Positions 26,469-53,640 of a stretch of DNA of 64,000 bases are shown here, piece by piece (within the stretch, counting starts at the first letter, position 1; each line of letters begins with the position of its first letter). The position numbers and the translations under genes were made by a program. The stretch is taken from the NCBI RefSeq assembly GCF_000169175.1, contig NZ_AAWS01000006.1, positions 7,192 through 71,191 of the forward strand. Reading direction: 5' to 3'. The notes under the pieces are model-generated. The model was not told the DNA's origin, did not search any database, and saw only the letters and a program-made list of their open reading frames with translations. This DNA comes from Microscilla marina ATCC 23134. Lineage in GTDB: Bacteria > Bacteroidota > Bacteroidia > Cytophagales > Microscillaceae.

Positions 26469-29400
26469 ATGATACATTTTACAAACAAGGTCGTCGGACT
26501 AAAACCGCCTGTGCAGCCTTTTTACCTGGCTTGCTTGCTGGCTTTTGTTGCGTGCATTCATCCGCTCAAAGCGCAACTTACTGCTGTGTCTAATAGCACA
26601 GTGATGTCTGTCGATGGTTCTGAAAGCCCAGCAACAAGTAATATTTGGAAATTTTTTGATGGGGCAAATCTTTCAACCAACGATTCTGACCTTACCGGAA
26701 ATCAGGTGATTTCGTTACAAAAGAAAGGAAGAGCACGCCGCTCGTATACAGTGACCGAGGCTGGTTATTACCGGGTACGGGTAAAGGCTGCATTGCGTGC
26801 CAAGGTGCTGAACACACAACGCCCAAATGTGGGCATACGCATAGATGGTATCGATTTGGGTAATATACCAGTGCCCTCTGACTCTTACACCGACTTACAT
26901 TCTTTGGCCATTTATTTAACTGCTGGCAACCACAATATAGAACTCAGAAGAGTTCCTTCACAAGAAGGTGATCAAACCGCCTTTGTAGACGATTTGCGCC
27001 TTGAGAAACTACACGATTGGCAAATTTGGATAAACAGCCAGACAAACAGTAGCCAGATGGTAACTATACCAGCAGGAACCACTGTAGTAATGAATGGAAA
27101 CATCAAGGCAAAACGCATCATGGTGAAGGGACACCTGGTGGCGGCCCAAAACCGTGACCTGGATATTACTACTCATAATATTATGGTGATGGGAGCAGGA
27201 GCTTTGTTTGAACTTGGGCAGGCACTGGTTCCTTACCCTAAACAAGCCACCATTACCCTCAATGCACCTGGGGATGGTACTGCTCACTCAACAATGGGAG
27301 ATAATTATTTGGGAGCTATGGGAGGTGCCCGCCTGGAGATGCATGGTTTGGCAAAAACCAGTTGGACAAAACTGCAAAGTGGCGGTGCTGTTGGTAGCAA
27401 TCAAATTGTGTTGGAAGGGGCTATCCCCCACTGGAAAGCGGGTGATGAGATCATCATTACATCCAATCGTCTTACCAAGGAAGAAGGTGTCTGGGTTGAT
27501 CGATCCGAAAAACGCACCATTCATTCAGTAGCAGGAAGACGAGTTACCTTAAGCACCGCTTTGACCTATGCGCATAATGGAGGGGTAAAAACTTACAAAA
27601 ATGCTGAAGACTCCCCAACCTGGACGGCCGACCTAAGAGCCGAAGTAGGTATGCTTACCCACAATATTAAAATACAGGGAGCCCCTACTACTACAGGCTA
27701 TGGTGGCCACATCATGATAATGGGCAATGGCAAGGCTTATGTAAGTGGCGTGGAACTATACAACATGGGGCAAAAACAGAAAATGGGGCGTTACCCGTTC
27801 CACTGGCATATGTTGGGTAAGGCAGGTAAGGGACAATACTTCAAAAACTCCAGTGTGCACCAATCGTACAACCGAGCCATTACCATTCATGGTACAGACA
27901 GCACACTCGTTGAAAACAATTTTTGTTATGACCACATCGGGCATGGCGTCTTTCTGGAAGATGGCAGCGAACGTTTTAACACCATCAAAAAAAATGTGGT
28001 ATTGCTTACCAAACGTCCCGAAAAAGGAGAAGAACTAATTATTTCTGATAACGAGCTTGATAAAATGCAAGACCGCACCCCAGCCAGCTTCTGGATTACC
28101 AACCCCCAAAACACCTTTGAAGACAACATAGCCGCTGGCACACATGGTACAGGGTATTGGTTTGCGTTCCCTCTCAAGCCTACAGGAGCATCAGCTAACG
28201 ACCCTCGCTTTAAGGATATGGAACCATACAAGTCGCCTCTTATTAGTTTTAAGGGTAATGTGGCCCATAGTTGTATGTCTGGTTTTGATATTTTTGACCA
28301 AATACGTTCTGATCACAAGATTTTGGTGAGCATGGGATGGGATAACAAGGAAGAACACTTGATGGAAGACTGCCTGTGGTTTGCCAATGATTTGGCACTG
28401 TATGCAGGCTTTGGCTGGCTTGAACATATTGTGCAAGGTCCTACCGATAACCTTATTTTTAGAAACAATATATTCGTTGAAAACAAGGCGGCTACTATGT
28501 TTGCCAGCAACTGCATTGTAGATAAGTCGGTGTTTGTGGCTCATTCAGGTTATGATTTGATTCCTGCAAACGAGGAGCGCCGGGCGTATTTGGTATACGA
28601 TGGCCCTGGCCAAATACATCATAGTCATTTTATAGGGTGGGATCATAAAAAAGCCAACTTGTTGGGGAACATTGGTTCAGCTATCAAACATGTAAACCAT
28701 ATATTTAGGGGTAACACCACTAATCAGGTAGTTCGTTGTGAATTAGATAACTTCAATATTCAACCAACAAATGACCAGCCTTTATTCAGACTTCGCCCCA
28801 GAGTTTGGTCTGTGGTGGTTAAAGACGAAACCGGAACTTTTACCGGGATACCTAACACTGCTTTGGTAAGCAACCATCCTTTTATATTGGTGGGCGATGA
28901 AAAAAACCCATATCCAAACAAATGGGCAAATGTTTATCGCAGTCATCATCGTTTTGCTTTGGCTACGTTGCGTTATCCTGATATTGAAACAAACAAGTTT
29001 CCCAATATTGTGGTTACCCGTCAAAAACAAGGTGCTGAGTCCCGACAGGTTTCTTACAAACCAGATGGTGTGCAGGTAGGTAATTACCAATCGCTGCCTG
29101 TAATTGTAAACGAGGGCTTTGAATATATATATGAGTTTGACAAGCTGCCTTCAACGCAGATGATACAAATGCGAATGGATGATGCTACAACAGGCGATGA
29201 GAACACTACTGTCTTCAAAGACTTTGGTAAACTGGGTGGTTTAGAGGTAGCCGCTATTGATTGCCCCAGTTGCCCTGATAAGACCGCTTTAAGTATGTCT
29301 TCGTATACATCTTTAGATGATTTGCGTAGCGCGCCGGGCAGTGGGTACTACATAGAGCCAGCGGGTGATTTGTATGTAAAAGTAAAAGCCATTGGCAACA

Positions 29401-30743
29401 GGCAATATTATAAACTCACTTGGAATACCAACTTTGTGGTACCTATGATGGATACCGACGGAGATGGTATGTCAAATGTGGACGAGTATCTTAAAAGTCG
29501 CAGTATGTTTGATGCCAAAGATTTGGAGACTGGTTTTGATAAAACTGATGACGCTGATAACGCTGATAAATTTGAGGGTTGGACAAAGTTGTACCATGTT
29601 GTAAATGTGCAAGTAAAAGATGGTACCTTGCGTGGAACCTCTAACAATAGTGGTATAAGAGCAGCCATTATTAACGATCAATTTAACTTCCAGGCTGATC
29701 GGGTGCAAACCATTCAGGTACGAATGAAGGCTTCGCATAATGTGCCTGTTCTATTGTTTTTTTATATCAATAATGAATCTTATTTTCCAGCACAAAATAA
29801 GCCGGTAATTGCTCATTATACTGGCAATGGAGACTGGCAAACGCTTACTTTTAATGTGAGCAATCACCCTGCATGGAATGGTACCATCAAAGCCCTACGC
29901 CTTGACCCAGTAAATGTGCCAAATACTTCCTTTGAGATTGATTGGATCAAATCGAGTCACATAGATACTGATGGAGATGGCATGTCAGATGTGGAGGAAA
30001 ATCATAAGAACCGTGATCAGCTTGATGCCAAAGATTTGGAGACTGGTTTTGATAAAACTGATAACGCTGATAAACTTGAGGGTTGGACAAAGTTGTACCA
30101 TGTTGTAAATGTGCAAGTAAAAGATGGCACCTTGCGCGGAACCTCTGGCAATAATAATAATAGAGTAATCATTATTAACGATCAATTTAACTTCCAGGCC
30201 AATCAGGTACGCACCATTCAGGTACGAATGAAGGCTTCGCGTAATGTGCCTGCTCTATTGTTTTTTTATATCAATAATGAATCTTATTTTCCAGCAGAAA
30301 ATGAACCGATAACTACTCATTATACAGGCAATGGAGACTGGCAAACGCTTACTTTTAATGTGGGCAATCACCCTGCCTGGAATGGTACCATCAAAGCTCT
30401 ACGCCTTGACCCAGTAAATGTGCCAAATACTTCCTTTGAGATTGATTGGATCAAGAGTTGTACTAATTGTGCGGCAGCAGGAGGTTCATCGGCCAGAACC
30501 ACCACCCAAGGCTTTGTCCAACCACAGCCAGAAAGTAAGGTAAGTATTTACCCCAACCCACTGGGCGAGCAGTTATTTATCAAGGGCATTGGCGAAGGTA
30601 CCATCGTTCGCATTTTTGATATGCAGAGCAAGCTTCGTAAAAAACTGGCATACAAAGGTTCTATTAATGTAACCGACCTCGAAGCGGGTATTTATTTGGT
30701 AGAAGTAAATGGCACATTTTATAAAGTGCTAAAGGAGGAGTAA
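26469..30743 (+). CDS. Secreted G8-domain / CEMIP-TMEM2-like right-handed beta-helix protein. It has thrombospondin-type-3-like Ca-binding repeats and a T9SS (Por) C-terminal sorting domain. The start is probably MIHFTNK... at 26469, with the signal peptide ending ...PLKAQ.
   Basis: The G8-like segment is ...GDEIIITSN.... The motif GRYPFHWHMLG...VHQSYNRAITIHGT...NNFCYDHIGHGVFLEDGSERFN matches the CEMIP/TMEM2 core (GRYPIHFH...HCFF.EDG.E..N). DTDGDGMSNVDE / DTDGDGMSDVEE are calcium-binding motifs. The C-terminus VSIYPNPLGEQLFIKG...IYLVEVNGTFYKVLKEE is a T9SS CTD. Confidence 0.7.
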   Translation: MIHFTNKVVGLKPPVQPFYLACLLAFVACIHPLKAQLTAVSNSTVMSVDGSESPATSNIWKFFDGANLSTNDSDLTGNQVISLQKKGRARRSYTVTEAGYYRVRVKAALRAKVLNTQRPNVGIRIDGIDLGNIPVPSDSYTDLHSLAIYLTAGNHNIELRRVPSQEGDQTAFVDDLRLEKLHDWQIWINSQTNSSQMVTIPAGTTVVMNGNIKAKRIMVKGHLVAAQNRDLDITTHNIMVMGAGALFELGQALVPYPKQATITLNAPGDGTAHSTMGDNYLGAMGGARLEMHGLAKTSWTKLQSGGAVGSNQIVLEGAIPHWKAGDEIIITSNRLTKEEGVWVDRSEKRTIHSVAGRRVTLSTALTYAHNGGVKTYKNAEDSPTWTADLRAEVGMLTHNIKIQGAPTTTGYGGHIMIMGNGKAYVSGVELYNMGQKQKMGRYPFHWHMLGKAGKGQYFKNSSVHQSYNRAITIHGTDSTLVENNFCYDHIGHGVFLEDGSERFNTIKKNVVLLTKRPEKGEELIISDNELDKMQDRTPASFWITNPQNTFEDNIAAGTHGTGYWFAFPLKPTGASANDPRFKDMEPYKSPLISFKGNVAHSCMSGFDIFDQIRSDHKILVSMGWDNKEEHLMEDCLWFANDLALYAGFGWLEHIVQGPTDNLIFRNNIFVENKAATMFASNCIVDKSVFVAHSGYDLIPANEERRAYLVYDGPGQIHHSHFIGWDHKKANLLGNIGSAIKHVNHIFRGNTTNQVVRCELDNFNIQPTNDQPLFRLRPRVWSVVVKDETGTFTGIPNTALVSNHPFILVGDEKNPYPNKWANVYRSHHRFALATLRYPDIETNKFPNIVVTRQKQGAESRQVSYKPDGVQVGNYQSLPVIVNEGFEYIYEFDKLPSTQMIQMRMDDATTGDENTTVFKDFGKLGGLEVAAIDCPSCPDKTALSMSSYTSLDDLRSAPGSGYYIEPAGDLYVKVKAIGNRQYYKLTWNTNFVVPMMDTDGDGMSNVDEYLKSRSMFDAKDLETGFDKTDDADNADKFEGWTKLYHVVNVQVKDGTLRGTSNNSGIRAAIINDQFNFQADRVQTIQVRMKASHNVPVLLFFYINNESYFPAQNKPVIAHYTGNGDWQTLTFNVSNHPAWNGTIKALRLDPVNVPNTSFEIDWIKSSHIDTDGDGMSDVEENHKNRDQLDAKDLETGFDKTDNADKLEGWTKLYHVVNVQVKDGTLRGTSGNNNNRVIIINDQFNFQANQVRTIQVRMKASRNVPALLFFYINNESYFPAENEPITTHYTGNGDWQTLTFNVGNHPAWNGTIKALRLDPVNVPNTSFEIDWIKSCTNCAAAGGSSARTTTQGFVQPQPESKVSIYPNPLGEQLFIKGIGEGTIVRIFDMQSKLRKKLAYKGSINVTDLEAGIYLVEVNGTFYKVLKEE

Positions 30744-31158: not shown

Positions 31159-31944
31159 TTATAAAAAAAACTCATCTTCGTCTATTATCTTACACTTCCC
31201 CGAAAGTTGGCGAATAAATTCTACTTCCTTGGGTGACATAGGATTACCTGACACAATCACCTTTTTTAGTTTTTTTAGCTTTAGCTGAAAAGGTAGAAAC
31301 TGTACCTCATTATAAGCTATATCCAACACTTTCAGTTTTTGAAGCGCCCCTGATACACTAAGGTCATCACTATACAACTTATTACTACGCAGGTTTAACT
31401 CTGACAACTCAGTTAACTTAGCCATTTCTTCAGGCAACGATTTTATTTTATTATAACTTAGATCAAGGTTTTGTAGCTGGTCTAAGTTCCCTATCTCTGG
31501 TGGGACTGTTTCTATACTATTATCACTTAAATTAAGTACTTCCAAACTCTTTAACTGCTCTATTTCGGGAGGTATATGCGTAATTTGTCGTTGAATCAAA
31601 AACAAAGACTTCAAACCTGTAAAAGCGAACAACTCTGGTGGAAACGGATTCACCATTATTTTTAATGAATGACCATCGGCAGTAGACAATGGCTTTGTGT
31701 TTTTATTGTTGCCAGGCTTTAAAAAATACAGCTCATTGTCATATATTTCAATCGCGTCTACTTGCTTAATAAACTCCATTTCTACATTATTCTTAATGCA
31801 AGAAATAGGATATTTTCTTAACTCCTTGGTCACTTTTTCATTGTACTCTCCATTTTTCCCCAAACACAATTGAAAAGCAAGTGCTATGTTATGAGCATCT
31901 TTAGTTTTCAAAAGAGATAATATCTTTTTGTTATGATCTTCCAT
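31159..31944 (-). CDS. Leucine-rich repeat protein (paralog family).
   Basis: LRR repeats (LxxLxxLNLSDNSIETVPPEIGNL...). The N-terminal motif KKILSLLKTKDAHNIALAFQLCLG is shared with 54611 and 55877. Confidence 0.7.
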   Translation of the reverse strand: MEDHNKKILSLLKTKDAHNIALAFQLCLGKNGEYNEKVTKELRKYPISCIKNNVEMEFIKQVDAIEIYDNELYFLKPGNNKNTKPLSTADGHSLKIMVNPFPPELFAFTGLKSLFLIQRQITHIPPEIEQLKSLEVLNLSDNSIETVPPEIGNLDQLQNLDLSYNKIKSLPEEMAKLTELSELNLRSNKLYSDDLSVSGALQKLKVLDIAYNEVQFLPFQLKLKKLKKVIVSGNPMSPKEVEFIRQLSGKCKIIDEDEFFL

Positions 31945-32398
31945 TGTTTTTTAATACTTATAAAACCACAAAAATACACCTTTGCTCAAAAAAAAAACAC
32001 GCAAGGCTTCTCTTTAGTCATCTTTCAATAAATAATTTGAGCTATTAAAGTGTATCTATTGCCCTCATTCTTCTCAAAAAAAAGCTTCATAACTTCGGCT
32101 ATGCACCGTTTTTTTGCATCGTCTGAGAACAATATATTTTCTTGAATTGGCACCTCTTATTTTTTCCGGATCACTTATCAATTTTATGAAAAAAAATTTC
32201 ATTAATATTTCTTGGCAAATGTGGACGCTAAATATATGATACATTGTATTTTTGGGTAAAGCTTTATAATAGAGACCAGTGGTAAGCGGCAAATCGCAAG
32301 TTGTATATACCTTCTTCTACTTTATACTTGTGTTAGGTCACTTGCTACCTACCTCTTTCAAAATATACTTACTAACAAGTCTAACAATTTCAAAAACA

Positions 32399-33673
32399 AT
32401 GAGCAACGAAAACGACAACGCGACTGACAACAACCTTCGCACGGCAAAACTAATCATGGTGACTGCCAACAACAACAACAAGTATTATGAAATGCAAGAA
32501 AACGGTGATGGCACCTTTACAGTAAGCTATGGCAGGGTAGGTGGACGTGCTACTACCCGAAGCTATTCAATGCGGGAGTGGGACCAGAAGTACCGCGAAA
32601 AAACCCGCAAGGGCTACGCTGATCAAACCCACTTATTTGCCGAAAGCAAAGAGGAAATAAAACTGGCTGACATTGACGATAAGGGAGTAGAAAAGCTTGT
32701 TAATCTATTGACCAAATATGCCAAAAAATCTATTGGCGACAACTATAATGTAACTGCCGACCAGGTAACCCGCAAACAAGTGGATGAGGCGCAAGAGATT
32801 TTGGACAAGATTGTAGGGATGGTAGAAAAGAAAAGTAAGGATATAAAAGTCAAGCTTAAGCTGGAAGATCTTAACCGTAACTTGTTGAATTTGTACCAGA
32901 TTATCCCTCGTAAAATGTCTAATGTAAACGACCATTTGTTTACTGGTGCATCTACTCAAGACGATGTGGAAACCATGGAAAAGAAAATGGCAGAAGAACA
33001 GGCGACACTTGATGTAATGCGTGGACAGGTAGACATTAATGAAAAAACCAAAGTAGCTGCTGAGGAGGAGAACACCAACGAAATAAACTTGTTGGAGGCA
33101 ATGGGGCTGGAAATGGCTACGGTGACCGATGAGGCGGTAATTAGTAAAATCAAGGACTTGATGCAAGACGAAGCGCATAAGTTCCACAAGGCATTTGAGG
33201 TAACTAATATCAAGACGCAGAATTGGTACGACGACTTTAAAAAGACAGCTAAAGATCAGAAAACTGAGCTTTTTTGGCACGGGAGCCGTAACGAAAACTG
33301 GATGTCCATTCTGGAAAACGGTCTGGTGCTACGCCCCGCCAATGCGGTAATCACCGGAAAAATGTTTGGGTACGGTTTGTATTTTGCTGATAAGTTTCGT
33401 AAATCACTGAACTACACCTCTTTGCGTGGTTCTTACTGGACAGGAGGCACGGCAAAAGATGGTTTTCTTGCCTTATACGAGGTGCACGTAGGCAACCAAT
33501 ACCACCTCAAAAAACACCAATCGTGGTGTTATGAATTGAGCGAGAAAAACCTCAAGAAAAAAGGGGATTATGATTCTCTGTTTGCCGAAGGCGGCGCCGA
33601 TTTACGCAACAATGAGTACATCATTTATAATCACTCGCAGTGTACGGTCAAGTACTTGGTACAGGTGAAGTAG
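32399..33673 (+). CDS. Poly/mono-ADP-ribose polymerase homolog (WGR domain, PARP helical regulatory domain and PARP catalytic domain). The start is probably MSNENDN at 32399.
   Basis: WGR: YYEMQENGDGTFTVSYGRVGGRATTRSY. Catalytic: LFWHGSRNENWMSILENGLVLRP...TGKMFGYGLYFADKFRKSLNYT...LYEVHVGNQYHLK...NEYIIYNHSQCTVKYLVQVK. This aligns to the PARP1 catalytic core with the H-Y-E triad preserved. Confidence 0.8.
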   Translation: MSNENDNATDNNLRTAKLIMVTANNNNKYYEMQENGDGTFTVSYGRVGGRATTRSYSMREWDQKYREKTRKGYADQTHLFAESKEEIKLADIDDKGVEKLVNLLTKYAKKSIGDNYNVTADQVTRKQVDEAQEILDKIVGMVEKKSKDIKVKLKLEDLNRNLLNLYQIIPRKMSNVNDHLFTGASTQDDVETMEKKMAEEQATLDVMRGQVDINEKTKVAAEEENTNEINLLEAMGLEMATVTDEAVISKIKDLMQDEAHKFHKAFEVTNIKTQNWYDDFKKTAKDQKTELFWHGSRNENWMSILENGLVLRPANAVITGKMFGYGLYFADKFRKSLNYTSLRGSYWTGGTAKDGFLALYEVHVGNQYHLKKHQSWCYELSEKNLKKKGDYDSLFAEGGADLRNNEYIIYNHSQCTVKYLVQVK

Positions 33674-33979: not shown

Positions 33980-34236
33980 ATACACCCTGTTCCATAGGCA
34001 ACTAATGACCATAAGTAACAGTAAGGACTTAAGACACTATCAAACACTCTACAAAATAGGCTGAAGTCCTCTATTTAGATATTTTTAAAATAAGTGTTGA
34101 AATTTAAAAGCTGACATAGCATATCCTCTGATTTGTAGTATAAGTAGAGTGATTTTGTACTGATAAAAGAACACTCAAAGCCCCACAGGACAGGCATACA
34201 CCTGACTGTGGGATGTTCCCAAAATTTTGCGCCAAA

Positions 34237-35673
34237 ATGAATTATAAGGAAGTTGTAGACAATAATCCCCTTCTTGAGACTGTGGCTAAGGTAGCCCAGC
34301 AAACCGGGCTTGAAACTTATGTGGTAGGTGGCTTTGTACGCGATTTGATACTTAAGCGCCCCTCGAAAGACATAGATATTGTATGTGTAGGCAGTGGTAT
34401 AGAACTGGCAAAGGCGGTAGCTGAAGAGCTACCTGATAAACCACAAGTAAATTATTTTAAGAATTTTGGTACGGCTCAAATCAAGGCTCAAGACTGGGAA
34501 CTGGAGTTTGTAGGAGCTCGGAAAGAGTCTTATCAACGCAATTCGCGCAAGCCAATTGTGGAAAATGGCACCCTCGAAGATGACCAAAACCGCCGAGATT
34601 TCACCATCAATGCTTTGGCCATTAGCCTACAGGCAAATAATTATGGTGAAGTGATAGACCCCTTTGGGGGAATAAAGCATCTGGAGCAGCGGGTAATTAA
34701 AACTCCGCTTGACCCAGACATTACTTTTTCTGATGATCCATTGCGAATGATGCGTGCCATGCGCTTTGCTACTCAGCTAAAGTTTGACATAGAACCCAAT
34801 ACGTTTGAGTCTATTCAAAAAAACAAAGAGCGTATCAAGATTGTATCGCAAGAGCGCATTACGGTAGAGCTCAATAAAATTGTAGCAGCCTCGGTGCCCT
34901 CTTATGGGTTTAAATTGTTGTTTTATGCTGAGTTGCTACACTTGATCTTTCCTGAAATGGTAGATCTGCATGGGGTCGATGTAGTAGAGGGCAAAGCACA
35001 CAAAGACAATTTTTTCCATACACTACAGGTACTTGACAATGTGGCCAAGGTATCGGACGACTTGTGGCTACGTTGGTCAGCCATTATGCATGACATTGCC
35101 AAACCTGTTACCAAACGCTTTGACAAACGGGCGGGATGGACTTTTCACGGGCATGAAGACAAAGGAGCTAAAATGGTTCCGCATATTTTTCGTAGGCTTA
35201 AGTTGCCCATGAACGACCGCATGCGTTTTGTGCAAAAATTAGTACGCTTGCACCTGCGCCCCATTCCATTGTTCCGCGACCACATCACCGATTCAGCCAT
35301 TCGCCGCTTATTGTTTGATGCTGGCGATGATATAGACGCGCTGATGATGCTTTGCCGGGCAGATATTACGTCTAAAAACCACGAGAAAGTAAAGCGTTTT
35401 CTCAAAAACTTTGATGTGGTAGAACGCAAGCTCAAAGAAATAGAAGAAAAAGACCGAATGCGCAACTTTCAACCGGTGATTACGGGTGAGGTAATTATGG
35501 AAGCGTTTGACCTGAAACCCAGCCGTGAGGTAGGACTGATAAAAACGGCAGTAAGAGAAGCGGTACTGGACGGTGAAATTCGTAATGAAATAGAAGAAGC
35601 TTTTGCTTTTATGGTAAAAAAAGGCAAAGAATATGGGCTTACCCCAGTAAAAACCATCAAAGAGTTGTCTTAG
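34237..35673 (+). CDS. cca: CCA tRNA nucleotidyltransferase / poly(A) polymerase family with an HD domain.
   Basis: [19 protein letters not shown] nucleotidyltransferase motif, [10 protein letters not shown], and a downstream HD domain (HDIAKP). Confidence 0.85.
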
Positions 35674-36002: not shown

Positions 36003-37238
36003 CTATTTATACCGCACAGGGTTATGCGCCCATCCTCCCCACGCCGACTCATCCCAAATATATTTTGCTTTCATTGCTTGAGCTTTTTCATACATAACCG
36101 CTGCTTTTTGGTCATGGCTATTGCCACGCATCAGCAGTGCCAAAGCGTAGCTTTCGTACAAAGCAATAGAATGAGGCAAATACTCAAATAGTTTTTGGTA
36201 GCAAATCTCTATGACCTCTCTGGGCAAACAATAGGTAATATCTATCTCAAGGGCTGCCAATAGGTCTATTGGGTCTTGAGATAGTAAGGTTTCTTTGATC
36301 AGCTCAGGTAAATAGGCAGCTCGTTGGGGGCGTTGGATGTATTGGCGAACAAAGCTTTCGAACCGATGACTGGTACGAAAAACCAAGGCTTGTGGGTGAT
36401 GTTCTAGTGACTCTTTATCTGGTATATCAGCTGTTTGCCCTGTCAAGTATTGGGCTTTCCTTTTTTCGAGGTTCCACCACCACGAGACGTGGGCTTGCTG
36501 CCCTTCAGCATAAGTTCTGATAATGGGTGAAGTAAGCAAACCGTGACAATAATCACTAGGGGTAGTGGTTTCGTCTAACAGTGTTTTGAGGCGTTGTTGG
36601 AGTTGCCAACTATAGGTAAAGTCAATATTGGCTCTGATAATTTCGCTTACCCTGAGTACTTGGTCTAAGTTGGTTTTGATACGTAAATGCATATCATATT
36701 GGCTATAAGCTTTTGCGTAGTTGGTTTGGTGCTGGTTGTCCCACAGGCGCAAGGCATACACTGCTTGGGTAGCTGCATTACGATAATTGTAATATTGAGG
36801 CTCGATGTATTGATTGATATAGGTTTGCAAAGTAGGAATCAAGCTTTCGTCGTTGTATAAAAACAAAGCAGATAGCCAAGCAGGTGAAAAAAAGATATGA
36901 TCGTTGGCGGTCAAAATAGCCTCTTTGACTTGGGGCAAAAACTGGCGCTTTTTTAATAAACCTGCCACCCAACATGCTGTTAGTAAAGCTTCGCGTTGGT
37001 AGGGTGCCCAAAGGTTTGTAGTTACATCTTGCTTACTAAATTTAAACAACGCCTCTATGTGTTCGTCGGGAATGGCAGCAAGTACGTAGCGGGTTCGCAG
37101 GATGAAATAGTCCCAATGTTGGTCGTAATGACTAAATACTTTGAGCCCAAATAAATGCCTTCGGAAGAATACAGAAAGATATGCATTAATCAAATCAGGA
37201 GGATAATATCGCAAGTTATCGCTGTTAGGGAGAAACAT
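36003..37238 (-). CDS. Hypothetical protein (411 aa), Trp/Tyr-rich, with no recognisable domain.
   Basis: Long ATG ORF between cca and the macrodomain gene. A degraded partial copy of its interior occurs at 38555-38750. Confidence 0.5.
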   Translation of the reverse strand: MFLPNSDNLRYYPPDLINAYLSVFFRRHLFGLKVFSHYDQHWDYFILRTRYVLAAIPDEHIEALFKFSKQDVTTNLWAPYQREALLTACWVAGLLKKRQFLPQVKEAILTANDHIFFSPAWLSALFLYNDESLIPTLQTYINQYIEPQYYNYRNAATQAVYALRLWDNQHQTNYAKAYSQYDMHLRIKTNLDQVLRVSEIIRANIDFTYSWQLQQRLKTLLDETTTPSDYCHGLLTSPIIRTYAEGQQAHVSWWWNLEKRKAQYLTGQTADIPDKESLEHHPQALVFRTSHRFESFVRQYIQRPQRAAYLPELIKETLLSQDPIDLLAALEIDITYCLPREVIEICYQKLFEYLPHSIALYESYALALLMRGNSHDQKAAVMYEKAQAMKAKYIWDESAWGGWAHNPVRYK

Positions 37239-37345: not shown

Positions 37346-37798
37346 ATGGCAATAACATTTAAAAAAGGGGGCTCTTTATTTGACGAAGATGTAGTGGCTA
37401 TAGTAAACCCAGTAAACACTGTGGGTGTGATGGGCAAAGGGCTGGCACTAGAGTTTAAAAAACGCTTTCCGACAAACTACGATTTATATCGGGCTGCTTG
37501 TAAAAACGACGAGGTACATACAGGACAAATGTTTGTAACCCATACGGACAACACTCCTGGCATCATTGTTAACTTTCCGACCAAACAACATTGGCGGGGA
37601 AAATCAAAATTAGCTTACGTGAGTGAGGGGCTAGATGATTTGGCAAAAGTGATAGCCGCCGAAAAGATGGCTTCTATTGCTTTGCCTCCTCTGGGCTGTG
37701 GGTATGGTGGCTTGGCCTGGACTGAGGTAAAGCGCTTGATTGAAGAAAAGCTGTCAGAAGTGGCCAATGATGTAGAGGTAATTGTCTTTGAACCTTAA
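37346..37798 (+). CDS. Standalone macrodomain protein of the DarG/TARG1-like clade (putative ADP-ribosyl hydrolase).
   Basis: IVNPVNTVGVMGKGLALEFKKRFP, NFPTKQHWRGKSKLAYV and PPLGCGYGGLAW match the DarG/TARG1 macrodomain signature (VNTVNCVGVMGKGIALQFK, NFPTK.HWR, PPLG.G.GGL). Confidence 0.75.
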   Translation: MAITFKKGGSLFDEDVVAIVNPVNTVGVMGKGLALEFKKRFPTNYDLYRAACKNDEVHTGQMFVTHTDNTPGIIVNFPTKQHWRGKSKLAYVSEGLDDLAKVIAAEKMASIALPPLGCGYGGLAWTEVKRLIEEKLSEVANDVEVIVFEP

Positions 37799-38133
37799 GA
37801 TACATTCAACTTTTTACGCTCTAAATATTTAATAGCTTCGTAAATCTTCCACTCTTATTTCTGGGCTTACAATCACCCCTGATTGTGCGGCAAAAAATAA
37901 TTATCCAGATATTAACACTTGAGTTTTTAGTGGCTTTTATCGAATTTTGCCTTGTAATTTTTCTCCAAAGTTATACTATGCCCTTAAGGTGAGTTGTCAT
38001 AAACTTTGAGCCTTAAGGGTTTTTTATTATAGTAAAAGCATAATAGTTATCGTGTGAAAACACAATTAAAACAATATTTTAATTATACTATAATTAACAC
38101 TAATTTTATAATAAAATTATTTTAAATATTTAT

Positions 38134-38415
38134 ATGAATACAGTAGAACAGATTATAGAAAAGATCAAGCAGATACGAAAAGAAAGAAAAATTAAACAAG
38201 AGGCTTTGGCGAAAGCTATAGGAGTAACTACTGGGCAATACTCGCACTATGAAACCCTCAAAACAGAAATCTCTTTGAGTAATTTTTTAAAAATACTTGC
38301 TTACTTTGAAATGTCAGTGAAAGACTTTTTTATGCTTGACTCCGCTACCATTTCCAAAGAAAACCTGGACGAGGTAATCCAAAGGCTAGAGTCCTTGCGA
38401 GATGGTAACGAATAG
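38134..38415 (+). CDS. XRE-family helix-turn-helix transcriptional regulator.
   Basis: IKQEALAKAIGVTTGQYSHYE is an HTH_3-like motif. It is preceded by a very AT-rich region. Confidence 0.6.
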   Translation: MNTVEQIIEKIKQIRKERKIKQEALAKAIGVTTGQYSHYETLKTEISLSNFLKILAYFEMSVKDFFMLDSATISKENLDEVIQRLESLRDGNE

Positions 38416-38440
38416 ATTTTAATGACATTTTTATATTTCA

Positions 38441-38750
38441 AGGATAACCTGTTTGATCATTCGTCGCTTGCCACTATTCCCTACCCCCTTCCTCATCCAA
38501 CACTTTCAGAAAAGTAGCAGGTTCGGGGCGTACCCGATAGTTGTCGATCGGGTCGGCTTCTTTGATTTGGGGCAAAAACTGGCGTTTTTTAATAACCCCG
38601 CCACCCAACATGCAGTAAACAATGCTTCGCGTATGTGATGCACTCAAGGGCTTGTGTTACTTTGCTTGCTAAATTTAAACAAAGCTTCTATGTGTTCGTC
38701 GGAAATAACAGAAGGCAGGAAACGGGTTTGAAGGACAAAGTCTTTCCATT
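38441..38750 (-). pseudogene. Mosaic of two gene fragments. 38478-38549 is a copy of the 3' end of gene 44361..45233. 38555-38750 is a degraded copy of an internal part of gene 36003..37238.
   Basis: Direct sequence similarity of 38478-38549 to 44378-44449, and of 38555-38750 to 36915-37105. There are no intact ORFs. Confidence 0.6.
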
Positions 38751-38858
38751 CATAAGTTGAAATGTAAACTAAACTAAACAAAAAATGGCTCCTAATAAAA
38801 AAGTAAGGAGCATAGAATAAATCTACACTCCTTACTTTTTGTTTACTGTCAATTGATA

Positions 38859-39188
38859 TTAGACAAAAATACTTTCTGATACTTCTTGCTTTTCAACTCT
38901 AAGCGCGATTGGTATGGCCAGTTTAATCCCATTTGCATCAAGTTGTCGCAACACCTCCATATTCACCTGGCTTGTGCCCAGGCTAACTTTATCATATTCT
39001 GACCCTACAGTTAGTTTATCCTCTGGCTTCCAAACTGCTATAGCAAACCAATAGTCAATATCGTGCGAATACTCTCCCAGCTTGTAAGTTGTCCAGGTTT
39101 TCTTCTCTGTTACATCGAATTTTTCAGGAATTTCTCTTAATAATTTCATTGCTATCTCAATCTGTTCGTGGGTAGTATCAAACCGCAA
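38859..39188 (-). CDS. C-terminal domain of the MscS-family channel. It lies in-frame downstream of the TGA at 39219-39221. The gene is either interrupted or read through.
   Basis: …DIDYWFAIAVWKPEDKL…VNMEVLRQLDANGIKLAIP aligns with the MscS C-terminal alpha/beta domain (INFVVRVWSNSGD…VLERIKREFDAAGISFPYP). It is the same frame as 39219..42797. Confidence 0.55.
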   Translation of the reverse strand: MRFDTTHEQIEIAMKLLREIPEKFDVTEKKTWTTYKLGEYSHDIDYWFAIAVWKPEDKLTVGSEYDKVSLGTSQVNMEVLRQLDANGIKLAIPIALRVEKQEVSESIFV

Positions 39189-39218
39189 ACGAATGATATT
39201 ATTAACAAAATAACGTGG

Positions 39219-42200
39219 TCAGGAGTCTTTATTTTTTATAGTGCTATTGATAAACACCCTGTTAGAAATGACATTTTTTTCGCCATAAAAATTGTTAATC
39301 ACAGAACTTCGTAAACCTATTTTATGTACCCAGCCATCTATGCCTGCCACTACTACTCTTTCTCCTACTTTAAAAGGTTTGGTAATAAGTAATGTAAGCC
39401 CTCCTAACAAATCGGCAAGAATATCTTTTAGCGCAAATGCCAAAGCAAAACCACCAATGCCTAAACCAGCAAGAATGGCTCCTGCATTAAAGCCTAATGT
39501 TTCGATAGAAAGTGTGATTGCAAATAGCCAAATCACTACAATAGTTAAAGCCTTTAGGAAGTAAACCATAGGCAAAAAATCTGCTTTTTTCAACCATTCC
39601 AGCTCATCTACTTTTTCTTCTCCCTCTCGTTTTCGTTTTTTAAAGAATCGGGAAAGAAGAACAATTGTCCTTGATTTTTTTTGTGTGAGCAATGCCTCTG
39701 TATACTTGCCCTCTTTGGCTTTTGTAGTGGTTGAGATAACACGAGCTACCATAGATTTGACTATTTTTATTAGGAACCAGGCGATCAAAACGATAAAAGA
39801 CAGTTTGATAATCATGTACAATAAAACTTTGTACCTTAATCGGTTTCTTGTGGATCTCAATGCCCCAATTTTTCCCTTCAAAAAAATCAGCCTAGCCAAA
39901 CTCGTTTGAGGTCTTTCTTCTTTATCCATCTTATCCAGCTCAGATTTGGGGTGACCAATAAGCTCAGCGATGCTCTTTTTAAGTACCACATTTTTGGCTT
40001 CCAATGCGCTAATAATGTCGGCATAAATATCTATTTCTTTCTCTATACCTCCAGGTGTTTGCCTTTCCTTAAAAAGAGTGATCCATTTTTTCGTCGCTGC
40101 AATTTGCACATGGTAATCAAACAATAAATCAGTGCTAATGCTAATGATAGAGTCCTGGCTACTTTGAGCAACTGGAGCTAACAAAGGAATATTTCGTCCT
40201 GTTTTTACCTGAAAAGCATTGATTAATTCATTGGCTTTTTCAGGTACCAGCCTTATTTTAATTTTTATCCATTCTTCTTCATAAGCAAGCTCAAGTTGTT
40301 CTAAATGTTTATTAAGAAATGTAAGTAAGACAGGAATAGAATCTTTTTCTGCGTATTCAAGCTTTGTTAATTTTTCTAATTTGTATATTTGGGTTTGCAG
40401 TATCCTTTGTTGTTGTTCTAACTGAATAAGTTCTACATAATTTGATGTGAGTATTTTAGAGTAGTTTTGAGTTTCAGAAGAGTTAATAAACCCAAGAAAA
40501 AATTCTTCAATGCCATTATCCGAATTCAGACGGTTAACTGCCAATTGTTCACTTACTTCTAAGGCAGTACCTTTCAGGGCTACTTTTTTATTGTCAAATT
40601 CCTGTTGTAATTCCTCTAATTGTTTATGAATGCTTCCTCGTTCACCAGTATTTTTTTGCATCTTGATAAACTGAGCCTGTAATTCGTTTTTCTCTTCTGT
40701 CTGACTCAGCCTCTTTAGCTCCCGCTGAATGCTTAGTTCCACCCCAAACAACTCATGGGTAAGCGATTCGAAATTGCTTATTCGTTCATATTTCAATGCT
40801 TCATTTACTTTAGCAGGTACTTCTTTGCGTTTTATTTTAGCCTGACTATACAGCTTTTTTATTTGTCCTGCATAAAGATTTTGTTGCAATAAAATATCGG
40901 TTATTTTTTCCCGCTTTACAAGTAACTGCCTGAGATACATCTGTAAAGAGTCCAATGATGTTTTCAGAGAATCTTTCAGACTTTTGCGTTTTTGAATAGT
41001 TTCTACATTTTGTGCCAGTAAGTTTTGATACTTTTCTCCTGCAATGTTTTTAAACAAACTTTTGCTTTTTGCCTTTTCTGCTTCGGGCTTCACCAACAAG
41101 CTATCCACTTTTTGTTCTTTTTTAGTAAATATCTGGACTTGTTTTCTTTGAGCTCGTTTGTGTATAAGAGCATATAGTTGAGAACGAATGCCATATTTAT
41201 CCTCCTGTGACTCTCTTTTAATAATTCTGAACAAAGGTCCTTTCAATATGTTCAATTCTCTTTTTATAGTTTTGGCAGTATCTTCTGCTCCTTTATATCT
41301 TTTGTAATAACTTTCTAGTCTCCGTTGTCTCATTGCCAAGCTATCTGTCAGTGTAGTAAAAGTATTGAGTAGCTTTTTTTTGCCAATGTTTTCAAGCTTT
41401 GCTTTCCATTTTTCTACTTTCATTAATGACTTGGCTGTTCTCTCAAGGCTATTTTTTTTGCTGGCAATCTCATCATAGTTCGCCATTAGCTTTTTTATTT
41501 CTTTAGCATTCAGTTCAATTTGTTTTTTTGCATTCTCGCTCAAAATTATTACTTCTGCATTTTGCTTAGTCAGGCTTTCTTCTTCTGCAATAATGGCTTT
41601 ATACCAGTTTGCTGACAGCATTGATTCAGGTTTTACTTCTCCTTTCTCTTCAAGGTTCTTAATGAGTTTTGCAATAAAAATCATCTTTGACAGATGCTCG
41701 CCAATTACTGCAGCTTCAGCAGTAAAAACTTCCTTACTAGCAATAAGCGCCTTCAACTGACTTTGCAATTCATTGGTGTTTTTTATTTGAACAGAGTCAT
41801 ACTTCAGCAAACTATTCAATGCCTGTATTGTCTTTTTTGTATCTTTCGACTCTTCTATACGCTTTGTTTTGGGAGGTTTTTTCAGCTCTATTTTTTTGTA
41901 CCTTACTTCTGCCTCTTTTCCCAAGGCCATTACTTTATTGTAGGCTACCAGGTAAGAACTCTTTATCCAATTTTTTTCTTCAGATAGTTCGGCAAAAGTT
42001 CTCAATAGTTTTTTAGGAGTCATTGCGGCATACTTGTTCTGTAATGCTACATTTTTTTGCTCGTTTGCCTGTTTTTCTTTGGCAGTAAACAGTTGTAACG
42101 CTACCTGTGCTATAGCTTTTTTATTTTCTGCAATATCGCTCCCAAGGCTTATAATCTCTTTTTTTACTACTTTATTGATTCCTTCAAATCGTTTTTCGAT

Positions 42201-42797: not shown

Positions 42798-43325
42798 AAC
42801 TGATCAAAGGGTGAATAATTGTTTAATAATGATTAATTACATTTCAATGGTATAGTGATTTGTCAGCTTTATCTAAGCCTCATTTTTTTTCAAGTATCTT
42901 AGTTTGGGCTGCCCTTATTGTTGGTTGATATCAAGATTTTAGATAAACATGGATCAGGGTTCCTTGAGAGGTAGACGTAGGGAAGTTTTTCCGTTTAATT
43001 TCAGCATAGGGAATATTTTCAGTATTTCTGCAAAATCGGTTATATTGTGTGCCACTAGGTGGGTTACTATTGCCAATCTTTCAGATAGTGTGCATGCTCG
43101 CCCAAATAAATGCTTATACTATGATTGGCAAGGCTTGCCATTTTCTTGCAAACAGCCAGTACCTCTTTATTTTCCTGCCTACACTCAAGTTTCCCAACGA
43201 AAACCACCCAGTTGATGTAATTTTTCAGAAAAGAGAATTTATAACCTATTTCAATCTTTTAATGATGTCCATAGGTTAACCATCGTCCTGCTCTCAAAAT
43301 ATTTTTTGACTAGCCGCACTAACAA

Positions 43326-44021: not shown

Positions 44022-44360
44022 TTTTTGAAGTTATTTGCATGAAAGTACCATCATTTACAGTCAGTAAAATCATTTAAACCCAGCCTCATAAAATATTTTA
44101 TAGAACCCTTAAAGGTTTCAAATATCTGTTTTTAAACAGGGCATATTCTATGTAATGAAAAATACATCAACTGGTCATTTTATTACATCAGCAAGTAAAT
44201 TACTTTAATTTACTAAAAAAACCAGTATAAAAACACATATTGAATTAAAATCACGTAATTATACCTATTAAAACACAAAAAAATACTGAGCGTATTTGGG
44301 ATTTATGAAGAAGACAGAGGAAATGCTTTATTAGGAGGAAAAAAAGGAGGTTTCACACCA

Positions 44361-51500: not shown

Positions 51501-51504
51501 TTTT

Positions 51505-52212: not shown

Positions 52213-52213
52213 G

Positions 52214-52921: not shown

Positions 52922-52922
52922 G

Positions 52923-53639: not shown

Positions 53640-53640
53640 T

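What the first reader, a model, noticed from the sequence alone, without database searches (positions are those of the whole stretch)
32399..33673. Eukaryote-like PARP (WGR, helical regulatory domain and catalytic domain with an H-Y-E triad) in a bacterium
The catalytic segment LFWHGSR..GKMFGYGLYFAD..NEYIIYN..KYLVQVK aligns residue-by-residue with the PARP1 ART fold. This includes the His-Gly-Ser, Tyr and Glu catalytic positions, so poly- or mono-ADP-ribosyl transferase activity is plausible. A WGR domain (SYGRVGG) and an alpha-helical PARP regulatory domain precede it. Bacterial PARPs are rare and patchily distributed, and presumably came from horizontal transfer out of eukaryotes. A DarG/TARG1-type macrodomain hydrolase gene sits 3.7 kb away at 37346..37798. 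Together they suggest a complete write-and-erase ADP-ribosylation module.
Basis: partly seen in the sequence, partly recalled or inferred. Interest (0 to 1): 0.75.

Follow-up and report, generated by a model that had tools for sequence, protein, structure and literature searches.

The report
Known Microscilla marina bacterial PARP gene
This is a real bacterial PARP (poly-ADP-ribose polymerase-like enzyme), but this exact Microscilla marina protein is already catalogued in two published surveys, and the nearby macrodomain gene is not a conserved partner, so the finding is correct but ordinary.

Summary
Window 32399..33673 (+) encodes a 424-aa protein with a WGR domain, a helical domain and a PARP catalytic domain. 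Its H294/Y328/E406 triad aligns with PARP1 H862/Y896/E988 and is invariant in 27 relatives. Pfam's PARP_reg model does not match, but the PARP1 alignment and an AlphaFold model support the helical domain.

It is not new. The window comes from Microscilla marina ATCC 23134 and the protein is UniProt A1ZG37, "NAD(+) ADP-ribosyltransferase". Perina et al. 2014 discuss the two M. marina PARPs and tabulate the genome's erasers. García-Saura et al. 2018 list A1ZG37 by accession.

The "write-and-erase module" is not supported. The macrodomain gene (37346..37798) lies 3,672 bp away, beyond a CCA-adding enzyme gene and an opposite-strand gene. Among 82 related loci it recurs only in the same genus. Relatives at 80-82% identity keep PARP-CCA-unknown synteny but lack it. 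Its active site is DarG-type (Lys80, Trp83, no TARG1 Asp). It has no DarT neighbour and belongs to a huge family of standalone macrodomains.

Most likely function: a nucleic-acid-break-activated ADP-ribosyltransferase reversed in trans. This is inferred, not shown.

In passing: most relatives, including Cellulophaga phages, carry an undescribed winged-helix companion gene. This clade lacks it.

The parts
32399..33673 (+). PARP gene (424 aa; M. marina EAY30454.1 / WP_002694681.1 / UniProt A1ZG37)
   Evidence: ORF and translation; Pfam PARP and WGR; exact-sequence look-up
32441..32629 (+). WGR domain (aa 15-77). The eponymous motif reads Y44-G45-R46 (YGRVG) instead of WGR, and an NNNKYY motif is shared with PARP2
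   Evidence: Pfam WGR aa 23-77; beta-strands at aa 15-57 in the model; family profile aligns to the PARP2 WGR; G45 and R46 invariant, Y44 at least 90% conserved
32681..33067 (+). Helical domain equivalent to the PARP regulatory/autoinhibitory HD (aa 95-223). It is below the detection limit of Pfam PF02877
   Evidence: phmmer/hmmsearch alignment to the PARP1/PARP2 HD; AF2 helices at 95-115, 125-147, 155-168 and 187-223; Foldseek; PF02877 not matched
33107..33670 (+). ART (PARP catalytic) domain, aa 237-424
   Evidence: Pfam PF00644 at 101.9 bits; PDB alignments; Foldseek
33278..33280 (+). Catalytic His294 codon (equivalent to PARP1 H862)
33380..33382 (+). Catalytic Tyr328 codon (equivalent to PARP1 Y896)
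33614..33616 (+). Catalytic Glu406 codon (equivalent to PARP1 E988)
33608..33610 (+). Asn404 codon at the position of PARP1 Tyr986, the determinant of chain length and branching. It is nearly invariant Asn in this family
   Evidence: alignment; role of Y986 from PMC7544232
34213..35673 (+). CCA-adding tRNA nucleotidyltransferase with an HD domain. It is a syntenic downstream neighbour of the PARP in Microscillaceae only and is probably housekeeping
   Evidence: Pfam and NCBIfam; synteny in L001 and L004-L007
36003..37238 (-). 411-aa protein of unknown function (A1ZG39), syntenic with PARP-CCA in Microscillaceae and transcribed divergently from the macrodomain gene
   Evidence: no Pfam, NCBIfam or PADLOC hit; cluster 9 synteny
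37346..37798 (+). Standalone DarG-type macrodomain (150 aa, A1ZG40). It is NOT an operon partner of the PARP. Catalytic Lys80 codon at 37583-37585
   Evidence: Pfam Macro; NCBIfam DarG 223 bits against a cut-off of 250, macro half only; PDB 5m31/5m3i at E 1e-40; PADLOC DarG, macro half only; residue mapping

Best explanation
The gene encodes a chromosomal bacterial PARP of compositionally native appearance, with the minimal PARP2/3-like architecture WGR - helical (autoinhibitory) domain - ART and an intact H-Y-E triad. The most likely mechanism, by analogy with the two bacterial PARPs assayed in vitro (Herpetosiphon aurantiacus, Clostridioides difficile CD160) and with PARP1-3, runs as follows. 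The WGR domain senses a nucleic-acid break. This relieves inhibition by the helical domain. The ART domain then uses NAD+ to ADP-ribosylate itself and other targets. Reversal is carried out in trans by hydrolases encoded elsewhere in the M. marina genome (Perina et al. list 2 PARG, 8 ARH3-like, 1 MacroD-like and 1 TARG1-like). The macrodomain gene 3.7 kb away is an independent orphan DarG-type hydrolase, not a dedicated partner. Shown here: domain architecture, catalytic residues, family conservation, lack of conserved linkage to the macrodomain, and identity with a published protein. Inferred: DNA-dependent activation, the nature of the product (poly, oligo or mono) and the targets.
For: Architecture and triad. 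Identity with M. marina A1ZG37, and its prior description. In-vitro DNA-dependent PAR synthesis by HaPARP and PAR synthesis by CdPARP, each reversed by its cognate PARG: PMC5966428 and PMC8120803. Strong purifying selection: the top 120 homologues are at least 53% identical, and there are long invariant blocks around the NAD+ site. Native composition: GC 0.435, GC3 0.52, similar to core genes. No PADLOC defence model matches. In independent mobile-element contexts, relatives sit among enzymes that act on nucleic-acid ends: L078 has DnaB-DnaG-PolIIIalpha-LigA-macro-like-PARP; Cellulophaga phage phi4:1 has tRNA NTase-PARP-companion-DNA ligase; megaphage L090 has PARP near an RNA ligase and an HD/kinase. 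Macrodomain not linked.
Against: No biochemical data exist for this protein or for any member of its Bacteroidota clade in the library I searched. The WGR Trp is replaced by Tyr (Y44). PARP1 Tyr986, which controls chain length and branching, is Asn404 here, and H-Y-E enzymes such as PARP3 and PARP4 are mono-transferases (general knowledge; PDB 8sx1 is deposited as 'Protein mono-ADP-ribosyltransferase PARP4'). Poly-ADP-ribose synthesis is therefore not assured. The AF2 model has low confidence in the active-site loops (aa 311-327, 341-351, 398-406). Most relatives have a winged-helix companion gene that this clade lacks, so regulation may differ from both the relatives and the eukaryotic enzymes.
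Confidence: 0.6

Rival explanations
1. One reading: the PARP and the DarG/TARG1-type macrodomain 3.7 kb downstream form a dedicated, co-inherited writer-eraser module.
For: Both genes exist and lie within 4 kb. The arrangement is kept in the 98%-identical uncultured Microscilla sp. (L004). CCA-410aa-macro order is kept in another Microscillaceae contig (L085). True adjacent macro-PARP pairs do exist elsewhere in the family (Ruminococcus L082/L083; probably L078). TARG1-class macrodomains can remove Glu/Asp-linked ADP-ribose (PMC9411070).
Against: The two genes are not in one transcription unit: two unrelated genes lie between them, one on the opposite strand. The macrodomain is absent within 9-10 kb in L005-L007, which keep PARP-CCA-unknown synteny at 80-82% PARP identity, and in all other Bacteroidota loci. 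The macrodomain family has more than 4,100 standalone members, and its sampled relatives have no PARP nearby. In one MAG that has both genes, they lie on different contigs (L080 versus L086). The active site is DarG-like (K80, H82, W83; Gly at the TARG1 Asp125 position), which points to thymidine-linked DNA ADP-ribose rather than PARP products. The adjacent macro proteins of L082/L083 are only distantly related to this one (E 1e-9 to 8e-8).
Confidence: 0.1
2. The enzyme acts on nucleic acids rather than proteins. It ADP-ribosylates DNA or RNA/tRNA ends as part of an end-repair circuit with the adjacent CCA-adding enzyme, and the DarG-type macrodomain reverses the nucleic-acid modification.
For: PARP lies next to a class II tRNA nucleotidyltransferase both in Microscillaceae chromosomes and, independently, in Cellulophaga phages phi4:1/phi17:2, where the PARP is 31% identical and the NTase 36% identical. 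Megaphage L090 has a PARP near an Rnl2 RNA ligase and an HD/P-loop kinase. DNA ligases lie next to the PARP in phi4:1 and L078. PARP1-3 modify DNA-end phosphates in vitro, and ALC1-like macrodomains reverse nucleic-acid ADP-ribosylation (PMC9411070).
Against: The contexts were noticed after the fact. Gene order differs: the NTase is upstream in the phage and downstream, after a 539-bp gap, in the window. The window's CCA enzyme is full length (486 aa, with an HD domain) and is probably the housekeeping cca. More than 70 other Bacteroidota PARP loci have no NTase nearby. The one distant co-occurrence (L082) is 7.5 kb away on the other strand. Large phages carry many repair genes anyway.
Confidence: 0.08
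3. The protein is a mono- or oligo-ADP-ribosyltransferase (PARP3-like) rather than a true polymerase.
For: An H-Y-E triad is necessary but not sufficient for polymerisation; PARP3 and PARP4 retain it (general knowledge; PARP4 is named a mono-ART in PDB 8sx1). The PARP1 Tyr986 position is Asn404 here and is nearly invariant in the family. PARP1 Y986S makes very short chains (PMC7544232).
Against: The two bacterial WGR-containing PARPs that have been assayed make PAR detectable with anti-PAR antibody (PMC5966428). Sequence similarity is higher to PARP1 and PARP2 (E 1e-18 and 1e-15) than to PARP3 (3e-06). The M. marina genome is reported to encode two PARGs, which implies a polymer substrate.
Confidence: 0.25
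4. The protein is an anti-phage or conflict effector that depletes NAD+ on sensing foreign DNA ends.
For: Relatives occur in phages, plasmids and phage-like islands. A Septu system lies elsewhere in the window.
Against: No PADLOC model matches. The immediate neighbours are housekeeping or chromosomal genes with stable synteny across Microscillaceae. Composition is native, unlike the Septu insert. Septu is 18 kb away, in a different operon context.
Confidence: 0.04

Closest known systems
Bacterial PARPs of the WGR-(helical)-PARP_cat type: HaPARP (Herpetosiphon aurantiacus Haur_4763) and CdPARP (C. difficile CD160), and the Bacteroidetes clade catalogued by Perina 2014 and García-Saura 2018
   Same: Same domain organisation and H-Y-E triad. 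The window protein (A1ZG37) is itself listed in García-Saura's Supplementary Table S1 and is one of the two M. marina PARPs noted by Perina. As those authors describe, PARP_reg is not detected by the Pfam HMM but a helical domain appears in models.
   Different: HaPARP and CdPARP have been assayed; this protein has not.
Human PARP2 / PARP1 C-terminal WGR-HD-ART module (e.g. PDB 4dqy_C, 6x0l_P, 7aeo_A)
   Same: Collinear WGR, HD and ART. H862/Y896/E988 equivalents, the HGS motif and Y907 (Y339 here) are conserved. Foldseek TMq is 0.60-0.62 to the multi-domain chains, and profile E is ~5e-25.
   Different: Only ~20% identity over the structural alignment. There are no zinc fingers, BRCT or N-terminal region. 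WGR Trp is replaced by Tyr. Tyr986 is replaced by Asn. I looked for no HPF1-like factor.
DarG antitoxin of the DarTG toxin-antitoxin system (for the macrodomain at 37346..37798)
   Same: ~55% identity to the T. aquaticus and M. tuberculosis DarG macrodomains (E 1e-40). The equivalents of TaqDarG N22, K29, K80, H82, W83, G117, G119 and G121 are all present.
   Different: Only 150 aa, so it lacks the C-terminal DarT-binding half: NCBIfam gives 223 bits against a cut-off of 250, matching model positions 5-148 of 338, and PADLOC matches 4-145 of 329. No DUF4433/DarT gene was found among the window genes scanned. N120 is replaced by Y120.
Human TARG1 / S. coelicolor SCO6735 (standalone ALC1-like macrodomain hydrolases)
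   Same: Standalone ~150-aa macrodomain of the same class. The catalytic Lys aligns with TARG1 K84.
   Different: Much weaker similarity (TARG1 E 5e-05, SCO6735 E 9e-07, against 1e-40 for DarG). TARG1's Asp125 is Gly here, so the Lys/Asp dyad proposed for Glu/Asp-ester hydrolysis is incomplete.

Membership tests
PARP (ARTD) family, clade-1-like bacterial PARP | PARP catalytic domain (PF00644) above the curated threshold | tested here: met
   101.9 bits against a cut-off of 26.7, E 4.3e-29; all 27 relatives also match
PARP (ARTD) family, clade-1-like bacterial PARP | H-Y-E catalytic triad in register with PARP1 H862/Y896/E988 | tested here: met
   H294/Y328/E406 aligned by phmmer and hmmsearch; invariant in 27 sequences
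PARP (ARTD) family, clade-1-like bacterial PARP | WGR domain (PF05406) N-terminal to the catalytic region | tested here: met
   30 bits against a cut-off of 22; the profile aligns to the PARP2 WGR. The motif reads YGR rather than WGR
PARP (ARTD) family, clade-1-like bacterial PARP | PARP regulatory domain recognised by Pfam PF02877 | tested here: not met
   No hit for the window protein at E <= 1; only 1 of 27 relatives, at E 0.037
PARP (ARTD) family, clade-1-like bacterial PARP | Helical domain between WGR and ART that is structurally equivalent to the HD | tested here: met
   phmmer alignment of aa 120-250 to the PARP1 HD; AF2 helices at aa 95-223, pLDDT mostly 80-90; Foldseek hits to WGR-HD-ART chains
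PARP (ARTD) family, clade-1-like bacterial PARP | DNA-stimulated poly(ADP-ribose) synthesis from NAD+ | not testable with these tools
   Needs an enzyme assay. It has been shown only for HaPARP (DNA-dependent) and CdPARP
DarTG toxin-antitoxin system (DarG antitoxin) | DarG-type macrodomain with the catalytic Lys80 | tested here: met
   E 1e-40 to 5m31/5m3i; K80, H82 and W83 conserved
DarTG toxin-antitoxin system (DarG antitoxin) | C-terminal DarT-binding domain (full-length protein of ~330-340 aa) | tested here: not met
   The protein is 150 aa. The NCBIfam equivalog score of 223 is below the cut-off of 250 and covers only model positions 5-148 of 338; PADLOC covers 4-145 of 329
DarTG toxin-antitoxin system (DarG antitoxin) | Adjacent DarT (DUF4433) toxin gene | tested here: not met
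   The flanking genes are a 411-aa protein with no hits, an XRE-type HTH and a 109-aa protein with no hits. No DUF4433 was found in any window gene scanned. The rest of the genome was not searched
TARG1-type terminal ADP-ribose protein glycohydrolase | Lys84/Asp125 catalytic dyad | tested here: not met
   The Lys is present (K80), but the Asp125 position is Gly in GCGYGG
Dedicated PARP-eraser operon (as in the macro-PARP pairs of L082/L083 or the PARP/PARG systems discussed for H. aurantiacus) | Writer and eraser adjacent on one strand and co-conserved across relatives | tested here: not met
   3,672 bp apart with two intervening genes, one on the opposite strand. The macrodomain is near the PARP in only 1 of 82 related loci outside the window, and that locus is the same genus
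PARP + winged-helix companion two-gene unit (seen here in Bacteroidota, a plasmid and Cellulophaga phages) | Companion gene immediately downstream of the PARP | tested here: not met
   Six-frame hmmsearch of the whole 64-kb window finds no copy, and nor do the nearest relatives' loci. The companion is present in 54 of 75 loci that have enough downstream sequence

The most novel reading that the evidence does not exclude
The Microscillaceae PARP is part of a nucleic-acid end-repair circuit. It reversibly ADP-ribosylates DNA or RNA/tRNA ends rather than proteins, works with the adjacent CCA-adding enzyme, and has its marks removed by the nearby DarG-type macrodomain. The same logic would explain the tRNA-nucleotidyltransferase-PARP-companion-ligase cassette of Cellulophaga phages.
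Probability: 0.07. Interest if true: 0.7.

Novelty: already known. Interest (0 to 1): 0.2.

Why it matters
As submitted, the finding rediscovers a catalogued protein. M. marina is the textbook "bacterium with two PARPs", and A1ZG37 is listed by accession in a 2018 survey, so it opens no new question. Its value is corrective in three ways. (i) Physical proximity of a macrodomain gene should not be read as a writer-eraser module without evidence of conservation. (ii) An intact H-Y-E triad does not establish polymerase activity. (iii) The physiological role of bacterial PARPs remains untested; the 2021 review lists both target and function as "unknown". The more promising lead lies outside the window. 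Most members of this PARP family, including phage and plasmid copies, are paired with an unannotated winged-helix protein. That pairing could give the field a handle on what bacterial PARPs act on or how they are regulated.

Tried and rejected
- NCBIfam has no model for the PARP, and PADLOC has none either.
- A look-up of contigs encoding the exact window protein returned only a 1.8-kb Logan contig with no context. Context was obtained from relatives instead.
- The sigma-70 promoter and intrinsic-terminator scan of 31.8-38.5 kb gave counts no higher than its shuffled controls. The scan's own description says organisms with other promoter types are not covered, and Bacteroidota use a different consensus (my own knowledge). 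It is uninformative.
- I looked for the companion gene in the 539-bp gap after the PARP and across the whole window by six-frame HMM search. There is none, and no remnant ORF.
- I looked for a second PARP, PARG, ARH or DarT among the ~41 window ORFs. There is none.
- The CCA-like gene in Ruminococcus L082 first looked like a third PARP-CCA co-occurrence, but it lies 7.5 kb away on the opposite strand. I rejected it as coincidence.
- Foldseek of the companion model gave only weak, generic winged-helix matches (best E 7e-3), so I assigned no specific family.
- One literature query was rejected for syntax.
- I did not attempt a phylogeny against eukaryotic PARPs.
Full report
1. OBSERVATION

The ORF at 32279..33673 (+) has an in-frame ATG at 32399 that gives a 424-aa product. 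All five quoted motifs are present at aa 43, 291, 320, 405 and 418. Pfam reports the PARP catalytic domain (PF00644) at E 4.3e-29 and 101.9 bits against a cut-off of 26.7, covering aa 251-424. It reports WGR (PF05406) at E 5.6e-07 and 30 bits against a cut-off of 22, covering aa 23-77.

phmmer against all PDB sequences finds 42 PARP1/2/3 chains, the best at E 1.4e-18. The alignment puts LFWHGSR on LLWHGSR, GKMFGYGLYFAD on GYMFGKGIYFAD and NNEYIIYN on YNEYIVYD. H294, Y328 and E406 therefore correspond to PARP1 H862, Y896 and E988. These three residues are invariant in an alignment of 27 relatives sharing 53-86% identity with the window protein.

The window protein has no hit at E <= 1, and only 1 of 27 relatives has one, at E 0.037. 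Even so, the phmmer and profile alignments run through the PARP1/PARP2 helical domain. An AlphaFold2 model (pLDDT 76.5, pTM 0.73) shows a beta-rich WGR at aa 15-70, an all-helical region at aa 95-223 and an alpha/beta ART at aa 237-424. Foldseek's best PDB hits are the multi-domain WGR-HD-ART chains of DNA-bound PARP1 (4dqy_C, TMq 0.62) and PARP2 (6x0l_P, TMq 0.60).

2. IDENTITY AND PRIOR KNOWLEDGE

An exact-sequence look-up shows the protein is EAY30454.1 / WP_002694681.1 / UniProt A1ZG37 of Microscilla marina ATCC 23134, named "NAD(+) ADP-ribosyltransferase" or "WGR domain-containing protein". The macrodomain is A1ZG40 and the 411-aa neighbour is A1ZG39.

- Perina et al. 2014 (PMC4245714, section 3.5 and Table 3) state that M. 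marina is the only bacterium in their survey with two PARP genes. They tabulate its 2 PARG, 8 ARH3-like, 1 MacroD-like and 1 TARG1-like genes.
- García-Saura et al. 2018 (PMC5966428) list A1ZG37 and A2A044 in Supplementary Table S1. They note that WGR-PARP_cat bacterial enzymes lack a defined PARP_reg domain yet model with a helical domain. That is exactly what I found.
- The 2021 review PMC8120803 records that only HaPARP and CdPARP have been assayed, and it gives both target and function as "unknown".

The finding is therefore already known at the level of sequence annotation and comparative genomics. I found no biochemistry for this protein.

3. THE FAMILY

A search of 5.8 billion proteins returned 3,920 hits at E <= 1e-5. 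The best 120 are all at least 53% identical, and every hit with a source name is from Bacteroidota (Microscillaceae, Cytophagales, Saprospiraceae, Chitinophagales, Flammeovirgaceae). A scan of one genome for each of 185,579 species with two family-specific peptide patterns confirmed 109 loci, of which 80 were kept. These include a second paralogue in the Microscillaceae genomes (L074, L076, L079), which fits the literature, and outliers in Treponema and Ruminococcus MAGs.

Related PARPs also occur in 16 phage records (Cellulophaga, Klebsiella and Xanthomonas/Stenotrophomonas phages, and a 462-kb uncultured phage at 41.5% identity) and in 22 plasmid records. The gene's composition (GC 0.435, GC3 0.52) resembles core genes in the window, so there is no sign of recent acquisition.

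4. IS THE MACRODOMAIN A PARTNER?

The macrodomain gene starts 3,672 bp after the PARP stop codon. Between them lie a full-length CCA-adding tRNA nucleotidyltransferase with an HD domain (34213..35673, +) and a 411-aa gene of unknown function on the opposite strand (36003..37238). The two genes therefore cannot be one operon.

I clustered every ORF within 10 kb of the PARP across 84 locus records: 82 distinct related places, one duplicate record, and the window itself.

- The window's macrodomain recurs only in L004, the 98%-identical uncultured Microscilla sp.
- Marine bacterium AO1-C, Microscillaceae UBA11690 and a Cytophagaceae MAG (80-82% PARP identity) keep PARP-CCA-~400 aa synteny but have no macrodomain within 9-10 kb.
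- A contig carrying a 78%-identical macrodomain keeps CCA-410aa-macro, but it ends before the expected PARP position (L085).
- ARH-type hydrolases lie beside the PARP in four loci.

The macrodomain itself belongs to a family of more than 4,100 proteins, mostly standalone and ~150 aa long, from several unrelated lineages. Two sampled relatives have no PARP or DarT nearby. In one MAG that has both genes, they lie on different contigs.

The macrodomain's nearest solved relatives are the DarG macrodomains (E 1e-40, ~55% identity). TARG1 scores only E 5e-05. I mapped the residues named by Jankevicius et al. 2016 (PMC5179494). The equivalents of TaqDarG N22, K29, K80, H82, W83, G117, G119 and G121 are all present, whereas TARG1's Asp125 corresponds to Gly in GCGYGG. 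The protein lacks DarG's C-terminal half: NCBIfam gives 223 bits against a cut-off of 250, and both NCBIfam and PADLOC match the macro half only. It has no DarT neighbour.

It is best described as an orphan DarG-type (ALC1-like) hydrolase. PMC9411070 proposes reversal of thymidine-linked ADP-ribosylation as the unifying activity of that class, although TARG1 and SCO6735 also act on Glu/Asp-linked protein ADP-ribose. The write-and-erase module is thus not supported, although action in trans on PARP products cannot be excluded.

True macro-PARP pairs, adjacent on the same strand with gaps of 12 to 21 bp, do exist in the Ruminococcus and Treponema-MAG branch. Their macro proteins are only distantly related to this one.

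5. MECHANISM

The best-supported reading is a break-sensing ADP-ribosyltransferase. WGR senses a nucleic-acid end, inhibition by the helical domain is released, and the H-Y-E ART transfers ADP-ribose from NAD+. Removal is carried out by hydrolases encoded elsewhere.

Direct support is the architecture, the catalytic residues and their strong conservation. Support by analogy comes from HaPARP and CdPARP.

Context from mobile elements is consistent with a role at nucleic-acid ends, but I noticed it after the fact:
- L078 carries DnaB-DnaG-PolIIIalpha-NAD-dependent ligase-macro-like-PARP, followed by C5 methylases.
- Cellulophaga phage phi4:1 carries tRNA nucleotidyltransferase-PARP-companion-DNA ligase-DNA methylase.
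- Megaphage L090 has its PARP about 3 kb upstream of an Rnl2 RNA ligase and an HD/P-loop kinase.

Caveats:
- The WGR Trp is Tyr here.
- PARP1 Tyr986, shown in PMC7544232 to control chain length and branching, is Asn404 and nearly invariant in the family. Poly versus oligo or mono transfer therefore remains open.
- The active-site loops of the model have low confidence.

The adjacency of the PARP to a class II tRNA nucleotidyltransferase in both Microscillaceae and Cellulophaga phages is intriguing (the NTase is 36% identical, E 5e-33). It may still be coincidence. Gene order differs, the window enzyme looks like the housekeeping cca, and more than 70 other loci lack it.

6. SIDE FINDING

In 54 of the 75 loci with enough downstream sequence, the PARP is followed directly by a small gene (85-105 aa, or 290-320 aa with a C-terminal extension that carries a WGR domain in the one long form scanned where Pfam detects it). 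The protein has the motif TTTLEVKN-LR--G--A-Q-DVS...NG-FR-Y, and the short forms end in a conserved FSxN tail.

- It has no Pfam family, and sources name it only "hypothetical protein", apart from two JGI calls of "arginine repressor".
- It models confidently (pLDDT 88) as a winged helix with only weak, generic structural matches.
- It is also present 8 bp downstream of the PARP on a Chondrinema plasmid (E 2.4e-24).
- It is present as gp030 directly downstream of the PARP in Cellulophaga phage phi4:1 (E 9e-14).
- It is absent from the whole window and from the coherent subclade containing M. marina.
- I found no description of it in the literature I searched.

7. VERDICT

The protein is already catalogued, and the proposed functional coupling to the macrodomain fails the conservation test. 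Novelty: already known. Interest: low (0.2). The companion-gene observation, although outside the window, is the lead worth passing on.

Noticed in passing
L002-L081 (e.g. L035 11270-11533; L003 11355-11624; L091 6227-6505; L088 7175-7639); absent from window 1-64000: A conserved, unannotated winged-helix protein lies immediately downstream of the PARP in 54 of 75 related loci, on a Chondrinema plasmid, and as gp030 in Cellulophaga phage phi4:1. It is 85-105 aa with a TTTLEVKN...NGxFRxY core and a C-terminal FSxN tail, or 290-320 aa with a C-terminal extension (WGR detected by Pfam in the one long form where it scores). It has no Pfam family and was not found in the literature searched. The M. 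marina subclade lacks it.
   Followed up: yes
window 11857-14018 (-): A Septu defence system: PtuA ATPase at 12669-14018 (PADLOC E 3e-116) and PtuB HNH at 11857-12672 (E 6e-49). It is inserted between the MoxR ATPase and DUF4159 genes of the BatA/aerotolerance-type operon and has clearly foreign composition (GC 0.32-0.37, GC3 0.27-0.33, against 0.53-0.57 for its neighbours).
   Followed up: partly
window 34213-35673 (+) and L088 5271-6005 (Cellulophaga phage phi4:1 gp032): The PARP is adjacent to a class II tRNA nucleotidyltransferase both in Microscillaceae chromosomes (PARP then CCA, 539-bp gap) and in Cellulophaga phages (NTase then PARP, 1-bp gap; NTase 36% identical, E 5e-33). This could be coincidence or a functional link to RNA/tRNA end repair.
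   Followed up: partly
L078 1-21191 ('Treponema' MAG contig CALBXN010000119.1): The PARP is embedded in a phage-like replication module: DnaB, DnaG, Pol III alpha, NAD-dependent DNA ligase, a 139-aa macro-like protein, the PARP, then C5 DNA methylases. Ruminococcus loci L082/L083 have a homologous 144-aa macro protein directly upstream of their PARP. These are genuine adjacent macro-PARP pairs, unlike the arrangement in the window.
   Followed up: partly
L090 4992-11263 (uncultured 462-kb phage LR756500.1): A megaphage PARP (41.5% identical to the window protein) is followed by an R2K ATP-grasp protein, an AAA ATPase, an Rnl2-type RNA ligase and an HD + P-loop kinase protein. This looks like an RNA-repair cassette.
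   Followed up: partly
L002 8082-8864, and L014, L015, L016: An ARH-type ADP-ribosylglycohydrolase (PF03747) is divergently transcribed just upstream of the PARP in four Cytophagales/Sphingobacteriales loci. These loci also have the long form of the companion gene (WGR confirmed by Pfam only in L002). It is a better candidate for a local eraser than the window's macrodomain.
   Followed up: partly
window 18454-19554, 31159-31944, 54611-55324, 55877-56647; also 26469-30743 and 56964-59957: The window holds several small paralogous leucine-rich-repeat proteins, plus other domains best known from eukaryotic proteins: a 1,424-aa G8/CEMIP beta-helix protein with a T9SS sorting tail, and a TMEM260-like O-mannosyltransferase.
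   Followed up: no
window 50793-54354 (-): Five tandem paralogous ~235-aa genes. The one scanned (50793-51500) has a LuxR/GerE-type HTH domain, and a similar array of four GerE genes lies in the AO1-C locus (L001).
   Followed up: no
window 37800-44100: A low-GC stretch (0.34-0.36) downstream of the macrodomain carries an XRE-type HTH gene (38134-38415), a 109-aa unknown, a 1,192-aa coiled-coil MscS-like protein and a methyltransferase. Compared with the related contig L085, where the macrodomain is followed directly by the CDP-alcohol phosphatidyltransferase/CTP-transferase genes found at 62-63 kb in the window, this region is rearranged or inserted in M. marina.
   Followed up: partly
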